Shown here: in pieces, positions 1,041 to 4,822 of the stretch
How positions within the stretch are numbered: position 1 is the stretch's first letter
Layout: every line of letters begins with the position of its first letter
Source of the DNA: a virus
Lineage: Duplodnaviria > Heunggongvirae > Uroviricota > Caudoviricetes
Virus record (IMG/VR): IMGVR_UViG_2648501150_000029
DNA: 6,469 nt
Direction: 5' to 3' (one strand)
The notes under the pieces: model-generated
What the model was told of the DNA's origin: nothing
The model's input: only the letters and a program-made list of their open reading frames with translations
Databases searched by the model: none
Made by a program: the position numbers and the translations under genes

Positions 1041-1110
1041 TGGGCACCTCGACAGTGGGGTTAAGAATGTCCTTACTTTACCATAGTTCTCACTTAAACG
1101 CCGAGAACAG
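1041..1110 (-). promoter_or_regulatory. zur 5' leader with ribosome-binding site; the promoter is probably within this stretch
   Basis: On the minus strand the sequence reads ...ctatggtaaagtaaggacattcttaaccccactgtcgaGGTGcccaATG, with a GAGG/GGTG Shine-Dalgarno. A possible -10-like TAAAGT is present but I cannot place it precisely. Confidence 0.3.
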
Positions 1111-1356
1111 GGTGTCATGGCTGTCACATTGCCTGATCGCATATTCGTTATGCTATAGTAGCGCCCCCAATTTACCAGATGCTTAAAAAGTCGCCATGCC
1201 AGCAGAATCACACACTGTTTATCCCGCTTACCGTTTCTCGATTGCCCCGATGCTTGATAGGATGTACCGTTTTTGAAAAACAACTAGTTATACACTTTGT
1301 GGGAGCCTATTGGGAACCTGTTATTCTTAGAAAGCATCATTTGCTCATCACTTCAA

Positions 1357-1385
1357 TTGACCATGGTTAAAGCCAGCTATAAACT
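1357..1385 (+). promoter_or_regulatory. Candidate sigma70 promoter for the downstream plus-strand cassette
   Basis: TTGACC (1357-1362), 17-bp spacer, TAAACT (1380-1385), overlapping a TATAAA at 1377-1382. It sits about 125 nt upstream of the ATG at 1512 in AT-rich DNA. Sequence-pattern call only. Confidence 0.25.
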
Positions 1386-1511
1386 TGACAAACGAGGTAA
1401 CTGGTTGCTTAGGCCCAAGTGGGCACACCATAAGAAGCTCGTGTTGGTGATGAAGCAACCCATGAAGTATCGAGAATAATTATAAAGTTCACTATCTTTG
1501 AGGTTTCTTAT

Positions 1512-2084
1512 ATGTTTTGCGAAGAAAAAGTAGCTCAAATGGCTGCATACCTACTTCTTAAGCGAGGTGGGCGCATGGCATATCTGAAATTGATGAAGTT
1601 GCTCTATCTGTCTAACCGCCAGTCGATTTTGAAGCATGGCAGGATGATCGGCGAAGATAGCCTTTACTCTATGAAATTTGGACCAGTCATGTCGAATACG
1701 CTGAACTTGATTCGCGGTAAGGCTGAAGGCATTGGTGACTACTGGTACAACTTGATAGAGACGAACGGGCATAATGTATCGTTGCGTTCAGATCCGAGGG
1801 AAATGGATGCAGACGAGGTCTTTGATGAATTGAGTCGTGCAGATATCCGGATTTTAGATGAAATCTATTCTCGGTATGGGCATATGAACCGATTTGATCT
1901 CGCAAATATGACGCATTTAGAAAGCGTTTGTCCAGAGTGGCACGATCCTGGCAATTCTCGTAAGCCTATAGACCTGAAAGAAATGCTGATCAGTGAGGGT
2001 AAAAGCGAGGATGAGGCTAATCGCATAATTGGCAAAATGGAAGAATCTCAGAAACTTAAGGAATTTTCTTTGCAATTATCATGA
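1512..2084 (+). CDS. Panacea-domain (DUF4065, GepA/SocA-like) protein; putative antitoxin or sensor component
   Basis: ATG at 1512 with GAGG 8 nt upstream. The N-terminal region (VAQMAAYLLLKRGGRMAYLKLMKLLYLSNRQSILKHGRMIGEDSLYSMKFGPVMSNTLNLIRG) has the K-L-x-K-L-L-Y-L ... F-G-P-V pattern I associate with Panacea/DUF4065 phage-associated proteins. Low GC compared with the flanks. Stop TGA 2082-2084 overlaps the next start. Confidence 0.6.
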   Translation: MFCEEKVAQMAAYLLLKRGGRMAYLKLMKLLYLSNRQSILKHGRMIGEDSLYSMKFGPVMSNTLNLIRGKAEGIGDYWYNLIETNGHNVSLRSDPREMDADEVFDELSRADIRILDEIYSRYGHMNRFDLANMTHLESVCPEWHDPGNSRKPIDLKEMLISEGKSEDEANRIIGKMEESQKLKEFSLQLS

Positions 2085-2500
2085 CGGATTATCAGCCATA
2101 CAGGAAAGGAACTGTGCTTGCCCCAACTGGGCCATGCAATCATCTTCATGTGATTTGTAATGATCCTGTTTATTACCCCGTTAACGATTGTTATTGTGTT
2201 TTAGTTGTTAATATTTCTAGTATCAAGGATGGTGTCCCCCACGATCCGTCTTGCGTCTTGAATTCTGGTGATCATCGCTTTATCAAGCATCCAAGTTATG
2301 TTGTTTACGCTGAAGCTATAATTTGGCGAGTGGATAACATGGTTAGAAAGCAGCGATCGGGTGAGATTTCTGTTCATGATGATATGCCAGAAGCTACATT
2401 CAATAGAATTCTGGACGGTTTTGATATCTCTGATGAAGTTACGCCAAAGAACCTTAAATTTAAAAATAAATATTGCGTATCATCTATTGATGATGAGTAA
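2081..2500 (+). CDS. Hypothetical 139-aa protein translationally coupled to the Panacea gene; candidate toxin/effector partner
   Basis: ATG 2081-2083 overlaps the upstream TGA (ATGA, 4-nt overlap) and has no independent SD, which implies coupling. Stop TAA 2498-2500. No family recognised with confidence; there is a weak by-eye resemblance to Kid/PemK/MazF-type toxins (C-x-C-V-L-V-V-N...SYVVYAEAIIWRVDNMVRKQRSGEIS), unverified. Confidence 0.45.
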   Translation: MTDYQPYRKGTVLAPTGPCNHLHVICNDPVYYPVNDCYCVLVVNISSIKDGVPHDPSCVLNSGDHRFIKHPSYVVYAEAIIWRVDNMVRKQRSGEISVHDDMPEATFNRILDGFDISDEVTPKNLKFKNKYCVSSIDDE

Positions 2501-2539
2501 ACAACAGGAATTGTTTCGGTATAACTTCAGGAGTTTTCT

Positions 2540-2713
2540 ATGGAAGATCAAAAAGCAACCAAGCCACAGGTTAAGTTCGACACAATGAAAGCATTCGCAG
2601 GTATGGGTGCTGCTGTTGAAGTTCTGATGAAGGCTGCTCCTAATGCGTTCACTCACGCTACTGTCTCTGGTAAAGAGCAGCAGGGTAAGCTTCGTCGTCG
2701 CAAAGCAGCATGA
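2540..2713 (+). CDS. Small hypothetical protein, 57 aa (MEDQKATKPQVKFDTMKAFAGMGAAVEVLMKAAPNAFTHATVSGKEQQGKLRRRKAA)
   Basis: Not in the ORF track (under 60 aa). ATG at 2540 preceded by AGGAG (2529-2533) at 6 nt spacing; stop TGA 2711-2713; followed within 20 nt by an intrinsic terminator. Basic C-terminal tail. No family recognised. Confidence 0.45.
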   Translation: MEDQKATKPQVKFDTMKAFAGMGAAVEVLMKAAPNAFTHATVSGKEQQGKLRRRKAA

Positions 2714-2732
2714 TCATAGCTGGTGCTTTTTG

Positions 2733-2758
2733 AAAACCCGCCTTTAGGCGGGTTTTTT
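2733..2758. terminator. Bidirectional rho-independent terminator
   Basis: aaaaCCCGCC-ttta-GGCGGGtttttt: a 6-bp GC stem (2737-2742 / 2747-2752) flanked by an A-run and a T-run, so it ends in a U-tract on either strand. It lies between the plus-strand small gene (stop 2713) and the convergent minus-strand excisionase-like gene (stop 2761-2763). Confidence 0.7.
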
Positions 2759-2760
2759 AT

Positions 2761-3042
2761 TTAGTGATGTTCTTTGCCCTTCTGTTTGCTTGTTCTGACC
2801 TGTTCCCACTCGATACGTCCTTCTTCTCGTCTTTTGTCTATGTATTCCGCAAGATCCTGAATATTGATGCAACGTTTTGCTTTTTGTGATGTGCCGATGC
2901 GATATGTTGGAACGGGCAACTTACAAGCGTTTGCTTTTGCTTCTGCCGTGGCTGGACTCATGCCAAAGTACTTTTGGCTAACTGCTGAGAGTTCAATGTT
3001 AGGGGTATTGAATTCAGCCATCAGTAAAAACAAGGTGTTCAT
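2761..3042 (-). CDS. Excisionase-like / PrtN-family small DNA-binding regulator, 93 aa
   Basis: Best start is ATG at 3042-3040, preceded by GGAG at 6 nt spacing; the ORF-track start at 3069 is a GTG with no SD. Product MNTLFLLMAEFNTPNIELSAVSQKYFGMSPATAEAKANACKLPVPTYRIGTSQKAKRCINIQDLAEYIDKRRE... has the MNTLFLLMA N-terminus that I associate with PrtN/excisionase-like prophage proteins. It is the last gene of the prophage operon. Confidence 0.6.
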   Translation of the reverse strand: MNTLFLLMAEFNTPNIELSAVSQKYFGMSPATAEAKANACKLPVPTYRIGTSQKAKRCINIQDLAEYIDKRREEGRIEWEQVRTSKQKGKEHH

Positions 3043-3078
3043 AATTTTCTCCATCAAAACCGGCTGCACCCGGGAAAA

Positions 3079-3651
3079 TCATAATTCTGTGCTGGTGGCA
3101 GGAATTAATTTCTGCCAGATAGCGGAAACATATTTTGCCTGATGACGGGCATCAGCCAGGGCGTTGTGCCGTTCGCCATCGAAAGGCATGTCCATTTTGG
3201 GGTCGAATCCGATGGAACGCCCAAGCGTAACGATCGTGCGTACATCGTGGTCATTCCAGTATGCCCACGGGCAGATTTGTCCTGCTCGCTCATAAGCTCC
3301 ACGTAAAATTACGTTGTCGAAGGTGGCTCCGTTACCCCAGACTTTTAAATATTTCGTATTGTCTGCGTGCCGGTTAATGAAATGATTTAGTTCTGAGAGA
3401 GCATCGCTGATCGACAAAGTATCATCAATACAGATTGCAGCTCGTGCTTCAGGGCTTTGTTTCAACCACCACAGGATGGTATCGCCGTCAGGTGTAGCTC
3501 CTTGCCCCATAGCACTTTCCAGGCTAACAACCGTATAGAATTCTTGTCCGATGTCTCCGGTTTCTGGAGTGAAGAACACCGCGCCAATGGAAACGATCGG
3601 TGCATCCTTATTTTTCCCCATCGTCTCAAGGTCGATCATTAAGTTGTTCAT
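3079..3651 (-). CDS. DEDDh-family (DnaQ-like) 3'-5' exonuclease, prophage-encoded, 190 aa
   Basis: ATG at 3651-3649 with AGAGGTG SD 5 nt upstream; it overlaps the upstream stop (TGATG). N-terminal Exo I motif MIDLETMG (D-x-E) and C-terminal H-x-A-x-x-D-A (ERHNALADARH), diagnostic of DEDDh exonucleases. By position this is the full-length counterpart of the ypdJ exonuclease fragment I recall in K-12 CPS-53. Confidence 0.75.
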   Translation of the reverse strand: MNNLMIDLETMGKNKDAPIVSIGAVFFTPETGDIGQEFYTVVSLESAMGQGATPDGDTILWWLKQSPEARAAICIDDTLSISDALSELNHFINRHADNTKYLKVWGNGATFDNVILRGAYERAGQICPWAYWNDHDVRTIVTLGRSIGFDPKMDMPFDGERHNALADARHQAKYVSAIWQKLIPATSTEL

Positions 3652-4460
3652 CACTTCACCTCTTGTGATGGTTTTGCTGCAAAATACTCGATACCTTTAT
3701 CCCAGATAGATTTTATGGTCGACCACGTGACTGGCACTTTAATTTCAATACGTCCGCTCCCGTCACAGGTATCGCAATCATCATCGCCAAAGCATTCCAG
3801 GCAGCTTATAAACGTAGTTTCTGAAAATTCACCGGATAGCGCCCCCTTAGCGCCGTTCTCGGCTGTTAGTCTCTTCGGCACCATAACCCAACCATCCGGA
3901 GTTACCGGAGAGTTGCCAGACAGTGCGTTCTGCAATCGTTCCAGCTTAACGTATTCCTGAACCCTGTTTCCGTCGCACGCCTGAAGCCATTGCACAGCCT
4001 TTTGCGCATCAGTGTGAAAGGCACAAGTGCGACCGTCATCAAATTGCATTTCGTAGAGGTCAGCAACCTGTTTAAACTGCGTTTGTGGCAACTTGTAAGC
4101 CTGGCTTGCAGGTACGGCACCATAGAGCATGGCAGCGCGGCAGGCGTTCCAGCCTTCATCAAAACCGACTATGCCATTATTTAAAGACGGACGAGCATCT
4201 GGCACCACCGGCACTGGCTTGGCTATATATAGCGGCTGAACATACCAGCCCTTTGATAACCAACTGTCAGCAATGTTTTTACTCCTGGTTATTGCCGGAA
4301 TACCTAAGCCATTGTCTGAATGCAGCCATGCCACCGGATCCTCTTCCAGCGATGCCAGAGCAATTTCATAAGCACGGCGCTCAACATTGTCTCGCACGTC
4401 CATGCTGCTGATTCGTTCTTTGATTTCTTTAATCAGTTCTTTATCGGTAAATGTGGTCAT
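3651..4460 (-). CDS. Hypothetical prophage protein, 269 aa, with C-terminal CxxC / CxxCxGxG zinc-ribbon-like motif (in the YfdT position)
   Basis: ATG at 4460-4458 with GGAGG/GGAG upstream; overlaps the upstream stop (TAATG). C-terminus ...TTFISCLECFGDDDCDTCDGSGRIEIKV contains CLEC and CDTCDGSG (CxxCxGxG, the DnaJ-type zinc-finger signature). Stop TGA 3653-3651. Function unknown. Confidence 0.6.
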   Translation of the reverse strand: MTTFTDKELIKEIKERISSMDVRDNVERRAYEIALASLEEDPVAWLHSDNGLGIPAITRSKNIADSWLSKGWYVQPLYIAKPVPVVPDARPSLNNGIVGFDEGWNACRAAMLYGAVPASQAYKLPQTQFKQVADLYEMQFDDGRTCAFHTDAQKAVQWLQACDGNRVQEYVKLERLQNALSGNSPVTPDGWVMVPKRLTAENGAKGALSGEFSETTFISCLECFGDDDCDTCDGSGRIEIKVPVTWSTIKSIWDKGIEYFAAKPSQEVK

Positions 4461-4822
4461 TATGCTCCAGCCTCCGGTGCTTTTGGCATTACTGCCCAGT
4501 GAGTGATGTTGACGTTTTCAAGGTCCCCGACCTGAAATGTCCACTGCCATTCTCCGGTTTCTTTTTGCCCCCATGTATACCAGAGAGAACGCCAGCCAAT
4601 CAGCCAGCCTTCTCCATTAGCATCAAATAACAGAACACTTTCATTCGCTGGCGGCAGTTCAGCTGACACTGGTATTACTTTGTTTTCCAGTGCTGCACAT
4701 TTAGCTTCAAGCGCATCAAATTTACGCACCAGGTATTCAGCATCCGTTTCATTCACTTTCAGATCTCGCGGTACACATTTCCCGCGAAGAAATCCTTCCA
4801 TTTCGAAAACATTCATGCGCAT
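4460..4822 (-). CDS. yfdS: YfdS-like prophage protein, 120 aa
   Basis: ATG at 4822-4820 with GGAG 8 nt upstream; overlaps the yfdR stop by 10 nt. A second in-frame ATG at 4816 forms an ATGA overlap with that stop. Assignment rests on the yfdQ-yfdR-yfdS order and the matching 120-aa length recalled for K-12; no motif recognised. Confidence 0.6.
   Translation of the reverse strand: MRMNVFEMEGFLRGKCVPRDLKVNETDAEYLVRKFDALEAKCAALENKVIPVSAELPPANESVLLFDANGEGWLIGWRSLWYTWGQKETGEWQWTFQVGDLENVNITHWAVMPKAPEAGA

What the first reader, a model, noticed from the sequence alone, without database searches (positions are those of the whole stretch)
1100..1511. Backbone-to-accessory junction upstream of zur: composition shift and about 400 bp with no convincing gene
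Past the zur 5' leader the sequence becomes markedly AT-rich from about 1250-1290 onward and stays so through the Panacea cassette. The 1100-1511 stretch has only short ORFs without ribosome-binding sites and a short imperfect repeat (cAGATGCTTaaaaag near 1175-1190 and cCGATGCTTgatagg near 1245-1260). This is where an island or prophage boundary (att site or decayed host-gene remnant) would be expected, but I cannot identify the repeat partner because the other end lies outside the window.
Basis: partly seen in the sequence, partly recalled or inferred. Interest (0 to 1): 0.4.

Follow-up and report, generated by a model that had tools for sequence, protein, structure and literature searches.

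The report
Prophage end inside the dusA gene
The stretch is the exact place where a lambda-like prophage joined the E. coli chromosome inside the tRNA-modification gene dusA; this type of junction is common and already described, so the finding is correct but ordinary.

Summary
Window 1041-1257 is E. coli backbone: the zur-dusA intergenic region plus the first 62 nt of dusA (ATG at 1196). It is 100% identical to a genome in which dusA is intact. From 1258 onward the DNA is prophage.

The crossover lies in ATGCTTGA (1250-1257), inside a 17-bp imperfect repeat (1241-1257). The partner copy matches at 15/17 and sits about 41-45 kb away, next to a tyrosine integrase and a phage-supplied replacement 5' end of dusA.

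Window 1258-1320 is the integrase-distal arm of the phage attachment site. It is conserved in 742 of 5426 complete E. coli genomes. Conservation stops right after two direct GGGARCCT repeats, which are candidate integrase arm sites. Three sequenced phage genomes (SKA5, Lys8385Vzw, mEp460) carry both arms joined as one attP.

Window 1321-1511 is the non-coding leader of the Panacea cassette. I found no conserved ORF, no Rfam match and no unusual RNA fold there.

The GC drop is real but modest.

This is the known dusA-specific integrase system (Farrugia 2015; phage 1720a-02). Interest is low.

The parts
1041..1195 (.). Host backbone: divergent zur-dusA intergenic region. This is the backbone variant without the DUF2713 gene that lies between zur and dusA in other genomes.
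   Evidence: Window 1041-1257 is 100% identical to L001 3001-3217, where zur and an intact dusA are adjacent.
1151..1159 (+). Candidate extended -10 promoter element (TGcTATAGT) of the native dusA gene, now pointing into the prophage. This is an inference.
   Evidence: Read directly from the sequence. A 13/14 match (GTTATGnTATAGTA) lies upstream of dusA in the otherwise diverged DUF2713-carrying backbone, but its E-value is only about 0.5. The consensus scan did not call it.
1196..1257 (+). Displaced native 5' end of dusA: the start codon plus 20 2/3 codons, cut off from the rest of the gene by the prophage.
   Evidence: Identical to the start of the annotated dusA CDS in L001 (3156-3217). The translation MPAESHTVYPAYRFSIAPMLD equals the native N-terminus. 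PGAP annotates the equivalent fragment in other genomes as a partial tRNA-dihydrouridine synthase pseudogene.
1196..1276 (+). Chimeric 26-codon ORF: dusA codons 1-20, a hybrid junction codon (GA from host, T from phage), 4 phage-derived codons, then a stop. It is a by-product of integration.
   Evidence: Translation. Identity to the empty site ends after 1257.
1241..1257 (.). att common core (ATTGCCCCGATGCTTGA). It forms an imperfect direct repeat with the far junction (ATTGCTCCTATGCTTGA, 15/17). Strand exchange falls within ATGCTTGA at 1250-1257.
   Evidence: Three-way comparison of the empty site, the window junction and the far junction. Both mismatches left of 1250 carry the host allele here and the phage allele at the far junction. 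Phage 1720a-02 has an experimentally defined 7-base core inside the same motif (PMC6328086). The Lys8385Vzw attP carries a tandem duplication of exactly this 8-mer.
1258..1320 (.). Integrase-distal arm of the phage attP. This is the minimal conserved phage end.
   Evidence: 742 of 5426 E. coli genomes carry it. Many prophages with different neighbouring cargo share only the first 61-63 bases of the 1258-1511 query (window 1258-1318/1320) and diverge just after. It is contiguous with the integrase-proximal arm in phage genomes SKA5, Lys8385Vzw and mEp460.
1278..1290 (+). IHF-like site (AAACAACTAGTTA, one mismatch to WATCAANNNNTTR) between the core and the arm repeats. The evidence is weak.
   Evidence: There are 14 such one-mismatch sites in the window against 8.5 expected, so the position is suggestive but not statistically supported.
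1301..1319 (+). Two direct repeats, GGGAGCCT (1301-1308) and GGGAACCT (1312-1319): candidate arm-type integrase-binding sites.
   Evidence: These are the only two GGGARCC sites in the window. Three more lie in the integrase-proximal arm (L002 46903-46937). Five of the 12 sites in 49.9 kb fall within 255 bp of att arms, Poisson P about 5e-10. The repeats are nearly invariant across prophages with different cargo (one substitution in SKA5, one at the last base of the second repeat in O157/mEp460), and conservation ends right after them.
1321..1511 (+). Non-coding leader specific to this cargo cassette. It holds a promoter-like TTGACC-17-TAAACT (1357-1385) overlapping a near-palindrome TTGACCATGGTTAA (1357-1370), and a GAGG ribosome-binding site (1500-1503) 8 nt before the Panacea ATG.
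   Evidence: Shared by only 208 of the 742 genomes with the arm. Promoter scan, palindrome. A stop and a frameshift in relatives break the ORFs. No Rfam hit. RNA fold z = 0.18.
1512..2757 (+). Context: the cargo cassette in the slot between the att arm and the excisionase. It comprises a Panacea-domain protein (1512-2084), an overlapping 139-aa partner (2081-2500), a 57-aa ORF (2540-2713) and a terminator hairpin (2732-2757).
   Evidence: Pfam SocA_Panacea, E = 2e-19. PHROG hits. Terminator scan. The same slot holds other cassettes in other prophages.
2761..3069 (-). Context: excisionase of the PrtN / pyocin-activator family, the directionality factor expected to act with the integrase at this junction.
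   Evidence: Pfam PF11112, E = 4e-23. PHROG 1300 'excisionase', E = 8e-40. Annotated as excisionase in phage mEp460.

Best explanation
Window 1100-1511 spans the integrase-distal junction of a lambda-like prophage that integrated by tyrosine-recombinase site-specific recombination into the 5' end of dusA. In the window's orientation this is the left junction, with the structure host arm - core - short phage arm.

The stretch has four parts:
- 1041-1195 is the host zur-dusA intergenic region.
- 1196-1257 is the displaced native start of dusA.
- 1258-1320 is the short arm of attP. It carries an IHF-like site and two direct GGGARCCT repeats.
- 1321-1511 is the non-coding leader and promoter region of a Panacea-type cargo cassette, which sits between the att arm and the excisionase gene.

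Strand exchange happened inside ATGCTTGA (1250-1257). At the far end of the prophage, outside the window, the integrase gene sits next to a phage-borne promoter and a surrogate dusA 5' end. That surrogate is fused in frame to the rest of dusA, so the host keeps a working gene.

Shown here: the breakpoint, the two junctions, the empty site, the contiguous attP, the population frequency and the integrase identity. Inferred: that the GGGARCCT repeats bind the integrase, the IHF site, the promoter assignments, and that this particular copy can still excise.
For: Breakpoint. Window 1041-1257 is 100% identical to an unoccupied zur-dusA locus, and identity stops after 1257.

Far junction. A genome with an identical 1041-1511 carries a 44,974-bp lambdoid prophage. 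It ends with int(-) followed by a restored dusA(+), with ATTGCTCCTATGCTTGA at that junction. Strain 998 matches the whole window at 99.2% and has the far junction about 41 kb away.

attP. A reconstruction made from the two junction arms is contiguous at 94-98% identity in phage genomes SKA5, Lys8385Vzw and mEp460.

Frequency. 742 of 5426 genomes hold the integrase-distal arm, and 742 hold at least 80% of the integrase-proximal arm plus phage dusA'.

Family. The integrase is a tyrosine recombinase (PF00589). It is 364/365 identical to the one in O157:H7 EC4115. Farrugia et al. 2015 list the EC4115 dusA island in Table S1, with a left end (5179273) that corresponds to window 1257/1258.

Experiment. 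Phage 1720a-02 matches the integrase-proximal arm at 94%. It was shown experimentally to integrate in dusA, to have a 7-base core, to carry a phage dusA' and to regenerate attP (PMC6328086).

Excisionase. It lies at 2761-3069.

Composition. The GC change point is at 1253.
Against: The far junction and the integrase are not in the window. For the window's own genome they are inferred from genomes with identical or 99% identical sequence.

The arm-site and IHF assignments rest on sequence pattern and conservation only. The IHF match is not statistically distinctive.

The consensus scan did not call the proposed dusA promoter.

The T/C polymorphism inside the core (ATGCTTGA here, ATGCTCGA in SKA5, mEp460 and the DUF2713-carrying backbones) prevents placing the cleavage points more precisely than within the 8-mer.
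Confidence: 0.95

Rival explanations
1. The junction is genuine, but in the window's own genome the element is a decayed prophage remnant that can no longer excise. The att junction would then be a fossil rather than a working recombination site.
For: Farrugia's table lists O157:H7 EC4115 as carrying a 10.9-kb 'phage remnant' at the same site with the same arm. The M21816 prophage has pseudogenised tail-fibre genes. The window shows only 5.2 kb of the element.
Against: The core, the arm repeats and the excisionase are intact in the window. The best whole-window matches have the far junction 41-45 kb away, with a full-length integrase where annotated. Free phages with the same attP and the same cargo cassette exist (SKA5, Lys8385Vzw).
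Confidence: 0.25
2. Window 1258-1511 hides a small protein gene or a small RNA, for example the 60-codon ORF at 1297-1479 or its 38-codon ATG-1363 version, rather than being att arm plus leader.
For: ORFs of 53-63 codons exist on both strands. The 1363-1479 product would be very basic. An sRNA (sRNA-17) has been reported in mEp460-like prophages (PMC7719688).
Against: There is no Pfam hit and only one marginal PHROG hit (E = 0.004). Close relatives carry an in-frame TAG and a 1-bp deletion inside the ORFs. No Shine-Dalgarno sequence precedes them. There is no Rfam hit at E <= 1 in 900-2690. The RNA fold is no better than shuffles, z = 0.18. sRNA-17 maps elsewhere, at L002 8164, which is outside the window.
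Confidence: 0.04
3. The local imperfect repeat (1170-1184 / 1241-1255) is the target-site duplication or att pair of a small inserted element.
For: It is a 12/15 match whose second copy overlaps the real core.
Against: Both copies are present, unchanged, in the unoccupied locus. 34% of shuffles give an equally good pair. The true partner is next to the integrase.
Confidence: 0.01
4. The boundary is a static, ancient insertion/deletion polymorphism or a product of homologous recombination, not a site-specific recombination junction.
For: The backbone around it is itself polymorphic: the DUF2713 gene is present or absent, and the dusA 5' alleles are strongly diverged.
Against: The breakpoint is identical in two different backbones and with at least five different adjacent cargos. 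attP is contiguous in phage genomes. A dedicated integrase and excisionase are present. A sister phage has been tested experimentally.
Confidence: 0.01

Closest known systems
dusA-specific integrase (DAI) elements of Farrugia et al. 2015 (NAR 43:4547; PMC4482086)
   Same: The element is inserted at a single site in the 5' end of dusA. The integrase sits next to the restored dusA. The element supplies a replacement 5' end. Semi-conserved direct repeats of about 21 bp flank it, and the displaced native 5' end lies at the far junction. The integrase here is 99% identical to that of the EC4115 island listed in their Table S1, and their island end coincides with window 1257/1258.
   Different: Nothing essential differs. 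In this backbone the repeat is only 15/17 identical, because the native 5' allele is diverged; it is a perfect 26 bp in EC4115. The paper did not describe arm-type repeats or the cargo slot.
Stx2 phage 1720a-02 (KF030445) in Citrobacter rodentium dusA (PMC6328086)
   Same: It has the same integrase-proximal arm (94% over 195 bp), the same core motif (attB GCTCCCATGCTCGACTGGA, 7-base core), a phage-borne dusA' and the same gene order with int at the opposite end from the early-left genes. Integration and attP regeneration were shown experimentally.
   Different: It has different cargo (Stx2) and a different host. That paper names the int-proximal junction attL, so the window's junction would be their attR.
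Phages mEp460, SKA5 and Lys8385Vzw (sequenced phage genomes)
   Same: They carry the contiguous attP: int - dusA' - core - 63-bp arm - cargo - excisionase - exonuclease. SKA5 and Lys8385Vzw also carry the same leader and Panacea cassette as the window.
   Different: mEp460 has a different cassette (177 aa + 57 aa) after the arm. Lys8385Vzw has an 8-bp tandem duplication of the core.
Bacteriophage lambda attL (B-O-P') architecture
   Same: The layout is a short arm with an IHF-type site between the core and a cluster of direct arm-type repeats, a longer opposite arm with further arm sites, and a separate excisionase.
   Different: In lambda, int and xis are adjacent and lie on the P' side of attP. 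Here attP (plus a cargo cassette) lies between xis and int. The target is inside a protein-coding gene, which the phage repairs with its own 5' end. Protein binding to the sites was not tested.

Membership tests
dusA-specific integrase (DAI) genomic elements | [quoted passage not shown] | tested here: met
   The breakpoint falls after codon 20 2/3 of dusA (window 1257/1258) when compared with the unoccupied locus L001. The breakpoint is the same in 7 occupied genomes with two different backbones.
dusA-specific integrase (DAI) genomic elements | Tyrosine integrase encoded next to, and divergent from, the restored dusA at the other end of the element | tested here: met
   Seen in L002 (int 45785-46882 on the minus strand, dusA 46971-48008 on the plus strand; PF00589, E = 7.5e-21) and in EC4115. 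It is not visible in the window itself. It is inferred for the source genome from identical or 99% identical junction-bearing genomes.
dusA-specific integrase (DAI) genomic elements | Integrase homologous to integrases assigned to the family by its authors | tested here: met
   The L002 integrase is 364/365 identical to the integrase of the EC4115 dusA island, which is listed in Farrugia Table S1.
dusA-specific integrase (DAI) genomic elements | Element supplies an in-frame surrogate 5' end of dusA, and the native 5' end is displaced to the far junction | tested here: met
   The phage-borne sequence MHDNPETQKTNQTSAMPEKTGAYGSSRFSIAPMLD is fused in frame to WTDRHCRYF.... The displaced native 5' end is window 1196-1257.
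dusA-specific integrase (DAI) genomic elements | Pair of semi-conserved direct repeats (about 21 bp) at the two junctions | tested here: met
   The repeat is 17 bp at 15/17 in M21816 and the window, and a perfect 26 bp in EC4115. I did not compare it with the published logo, because figures are not held.
dusA-specific integrase (DAI) genomic elements | Excision as a circle that regenerates attP and an intact native dusA | not testable with these tools
   Indirect support only: contiguous attP in three phage genomes, abundant empty sites, and experimental demonstration for the sister phage 1720a-02.
Lambda-type complex attP (arm-type sites, IHF, excisionase) | Repeated arm-type integrase-binding motifs in both arms, distinct from the core | tested here: inconclusive
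   Five GGGARCC copies cluster in the two arms (P about 5e-10), and cross-phage conservation ends just after them. Binding was not tested.
Lambda-type complex attP (arm-type sites, IHF, excisionase) | IHF site between the core and the arm sites | tested here: inconclusive
   There is a one-mismatch consensus match at 1278-1290. Such matches are only mildly enriched in the window, 14 against 8.5 expected.
Lambda-type complex attP (arm-type sites, IHF, excisionase) | Dedicated excisionase (directionality factor) | tested here: met
   Window 2761-3069(-): PF11112, E = 4e-23, and PHROG 1300 'excisionase', E = 8e-40. Annotated as excisionase in mEp460.

The most novel reading that the evidence does not exclude
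Integration swaps promoters. The displaced native dusA promoter and start (1151-1257) now point, with no predicted terminator, across the att arm into the cargo slot. In every variant seen, that slot holds a plus-strand two- or three-gene toxin-antitoxin or defence-type cassette. The phage-borne promoter meanwhile takes over dusA. The slot next to attP would then be a hotspot whose cargo gets host-promoter-driven, integration-dependent expression in lysogens.
Probability: 0.2. Interest if true: 0.4.

Novelty: already known. Interest (0 to 1): 0.15.

Why it matters
The main value is for annotation. It fixes the prophage boundary to the base (1257/1258). It explains the 'partial tRNA-dihydrouridine synthase' pseudogene that pipelines call here. 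It also shows that the Panacea cassette is phage cargo sitting directly next to attP, not chromosomal backbone.

About 14% of complete E. coli genomes carry an element of this class at dusA, so the anatomy may be reusable for delimiting these prophages: core ATGCTYGA, a 63-bp conserved arm ending in two GGGARCCT repeats, then a variable cargo slot. It does not change what is known about site-specific recombination.

Tried and rejected
- Rfam scan of 900-2900 at E <= 1. The only hits are sub-threshold and sit on the terminator hairpin at 2690-2765. Nothing hits 1100-1511.
- RNA fold of 1258-1515. z = 0.18, so there is no unusual structure.
- Pfam and PHROG scans of the three short ORFs in the stretch. 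Nothing credible came up.
- I tested whether the local repeat is an att pair or target-site duplication. Rejected on the empty-site comparison and the shuffles.
- I tested whether the backbone carrying DUF2713 between zur and dusA is a fossil dusA island that left a displaced dusA fragment between zur and DUF2713. I found no significant remnant. The two backbones look like diverged alleles that share the promoter -10 element and the ATG at window 1196. I dropped the idea.
- I checked whether the published prophage sRNA-17 of mEp460-like prophages lies at this junction. It maps to L002 8164, in the yfdP-repressor intergenic region, which is outside the window.
- The RS218 genome could not be fetched by accession.
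- The first script failed because some locus files are not exported to /data. I used the alignment tools on locus references instead.

Full report
**What the window holds.** ORF listing, family scans and comparison with annotated genomes give this map:
- the end of dinF (1-158)
- yjbJ (273-483)
- zur on the minus strand (525-1040)
- the stretch in question
- a Panacea-domain gene (1512-2084) with an overlapping 139-aa partner (2081-2500)
- a 57-aa ORF (2540-2713) and a terminator hairpin (2732-2757)
- a leftward block of phage early genes: a PrtN-family excisionase (2761-3069), a 3'-5' exonuclease, yfdR, yfdQ and others

**Checking the observation.**
- The GC drop is real but modest. GC is 0.479 in 1041-1257, 0.390 in 1258-1511 and 0.416 across the cargo module 1258-2760. 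It recovers to 0.469 in the rest of the prophage.
- An unsupervised change-point search between 525 and 2760 puts the shift at 1253, which is essentially at the true junction.
It is only a 12/15 match, and 34 of 100 dinucleotide-preserving shuffles do as well. Both copies sit in host DNA that is unchanged in genomes without the insertion.
- 'No convincing gene' holds for 1258-1511. It does not hold for 1196-1257, which is the beginning of dusA.

**The breakpoint.**
- A megablast of 1041-1511 against 5426 complete E. coli genomes splits the query in two. Bases 1-217 of the query (window 1041-1257) match at 100% in genomes where they run into an intact dusA. Bases 202-471 (window 1242-1511) match elsewhere under 'partial tRNA-dihydrouridine synthase' pseudogenes.
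- In strain 2017.09.02CC (L001), zur and dusA are adjacent. Window 1041-1257 is identical to L001 3001-3217, and identity ends exactly after 1257.
- The dusA CDS starts at window 1196. After the junction the frame runs five more codons into phage DNA and stops at 1274-1276.

**The other end.**
- Strain M21816 (L002) is 100% identical over 1041-1511. It carries a 44,974-bp lambdoid prophage to the right of the junction. The prophage ends with dinI, a 365-aa tyrosine integrase on the minus strand and, 88 bp further on, a full-length dusA on the plus strand.
- The first 104 nt of that dusA are phage DNA. They encode MHDNPETQKTNQTSAMPEKTGAYGSSRFSIAPMLD, fused in frame to the host WTDRHCRYF....
- The three sites read:

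| Site | Sequence |
|---|---|
| Empty site | ATTGCCCCGATGCTTGA-ctgg |
| Window junction | ATTGCCCCGATGCTTGA-tagg |
| Far junction | ATTGCTCCTATGCTTGA-ctgg |

- The two mismatches left of ATGCTTGA are host-type in the window and phage-type at the far end. Exchange therefore occurred within the 8-mer at 1250-1257.
- Strain 998 matches the whole window at 99.2% and has the far junction about 41 kb away.

**Direct test of the attP model.**
- I joined the integrase-proximal arm (from L002) to window 1258-1400 and searched the phage collection. The joined sequence is contiguous at 96.2% in phage SKA5 and 93.7% in Lys8385Vzw over all 342 nt. In mEp460 it is contiguous at 97-98% up to base 256, about two bases short of the arm's end.
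- In these phages the gene order is dinI - int - dusA' - core - arm - cargo - excisionase - exonuclease.
- SKA5 and Lys8385Vzw also carry the same leader and Panacea cassette as the window.

**Anatomy of the phage side.**
- Among E. coli genomes, 742 of 5426 carry the phage arm, and conservation is nested. Many prophages share only the first 61-63 bases of the 1258-1511 query (window 1258-1318/1320). A subset shares 105 bases. Only 208 share at least 80% of 1258-1511.
- Alignment of seven occupied loci with two backbones and five different cargos shows near-invariance through ...GTGGGAGCCTATTGGGAACCTG (ending at 1320), followed by abrupt divergence.
- The arm thus ends with two direct GGGARCCT repeats (1301-1308 and 1312-1319). 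Three more copies lie in the integrase-proximal arm (L002 46903-46937). Five of the 12 copies in 49.9 kb fall within 255 bp of att arms, Poisson P about 5e-10. I read these as arm-type integrase sites; this is an inference.
- An IHF-like match (1278-1290) sits between the core and the repeats, as in lambda's P' arm. By itself it is not statistically distinctive.
- An independent search with the integrase-proximal arm plus the phage dusA' finds 742 genomes with at least 80% coverage, the same number.

**1321-1511.** This segment belongs to the cargo cassette, not to att.
- It has a promoter-like TTGACC-17-TAAACT (1357-1385) overlapping a near-palindrome, and a GAGG 8 nt before the Panacea ATG.
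- The ORFs in it are not conserved as coding. A relative carries TGG>TAG at 1402-1404, in frame with the 60-codon ORF, and another has a 1-bp deletion.
- There is no Rfam match and no unusual RNA fold (z = 0.18).

**Comparison with what is known.** This is the dusA-specific integrase system.
- Farrugia et al. 2015 describe integrases at a single site in the 5' end of dusA in more than 200 bacteria. The elements supply the new dusA 5' end, are flanked by semi-conserved 21-bp repeats and excise as circles (PMC4482086).
- Their Table S1 lists several E. coli elements, including O157:H7 EC4115, with island coordinates 5179273..5190127. In that genome, 5179273 is the last base of the displaced dusA fragment, which is the equivalent of window 1257/1258. 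Its integrase is 364/365 identical to the M21816 one.
- Stx2 phage 1720a-02 shares the integrase-proximal arm. It was shown experimentally to integrate in dusA, with a 7-base core inside GCTCCCATGCTCGACTGGA, a phage dusA' and regenerated attP (PMC6328086).
- That paper calls the int-proximal junction attL, so the window's junction is attR in its convention. By lambda's structural convention (host arm - core - short arm) it resembles attL.

**Verdict.** The thing itself is already known and common, so interest is low.

**The one less ordinary point.**
- The displaced native dusA promoter and start now face the cargo slot, with no predicted terminator between them.
- Every cargo variant I saw is on the plus strand.
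- Integration may therefore put the cargo under the host dusA promoter, while the phage promoter drives dusA. I could not test this here.

Noticed in passing
window 1321-2760; L004-L008 about 1564-2720; L009 2757-3790: The slot between the 63-bp att arm and the excisionase holds at least five different plus-strand cassettes in different dusA prophages: Panacea + 139 aa + 57 aa (the window, MB53, SKA5, Lys8385Vzw); Panacea 193 aa + 153 aa; a 179-aa protein + a YafO-family toxin; 177 aa + 57 aa (O157, mEp460); and Panacea 157 aa + 182 aa. It looks like a toxin-antitoxin or defence cargo hotspot next to attP.
   Followed up: partly
L011 (phage Lys8385Vzw) about 2679-2705: The attP of this phage carries a tandem duplication of exactly the 8-bp core (ATGCTCGA ATGCTCGA). 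This fits the 8-mer being the staggered-cut overlap region; it may also be an aberrant recombination product.
   Followed up: no
window 1041-1240 versus L003 1541-3330: The backbone is polymorphic. Most E. coli genomes (about 3700 of 5426) match only window 1042-1108 at about 85%, and the sampled loci of that type carry a DUF2713 gene between zur and dusA plus a longer, strongly diverged dusA 5' region; the window lacks both. Divergence between the two dusA 5' alleles runs right up to the att core. The phage-borne dusA' is 81% identical to the long allele. This suggests repeated exchange of dusA 5' ends between phages and hosts.
   Followed up: partly
L002 8164-8184 (outside the window, yfdP-repressor intergenic region): The published ArcA-regulated sRNA-17 of E. 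coli K1 (PMC7719688) maps inside this class of dusA prophage, about 0.9 kb beyond the right end of the window.
   Followed up: yes
window 3651-4822 versus L002 4494-6112: The early-left region is mosaic. The window has a 269-aa and a 120-aa ORF where M21816 has three small ORFs and a PAPS-reductase-domain gene, even though the att junction and the Panacea cassette are identical.
   Followed up: no
window 2732-2757: A strong GC-rich hairpin with U/A tracts on both sides sits between the convergent cargo cassette and the excisionase. It looks like a bidirectional terminator. It draws several sub-threshold Rfam hits (sroH 3' end, RNAI, leader families) that simply reflect terminator shape.
   Followed up: partly
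(collection-level): A few matches to the att arms (5-9 places) lie on records labelled as plasmids rather than chromosomes. I did not inspect them. They could be phage-plasmids, excised circles assembled as replicons, or misassemblies.
   Followed up: no
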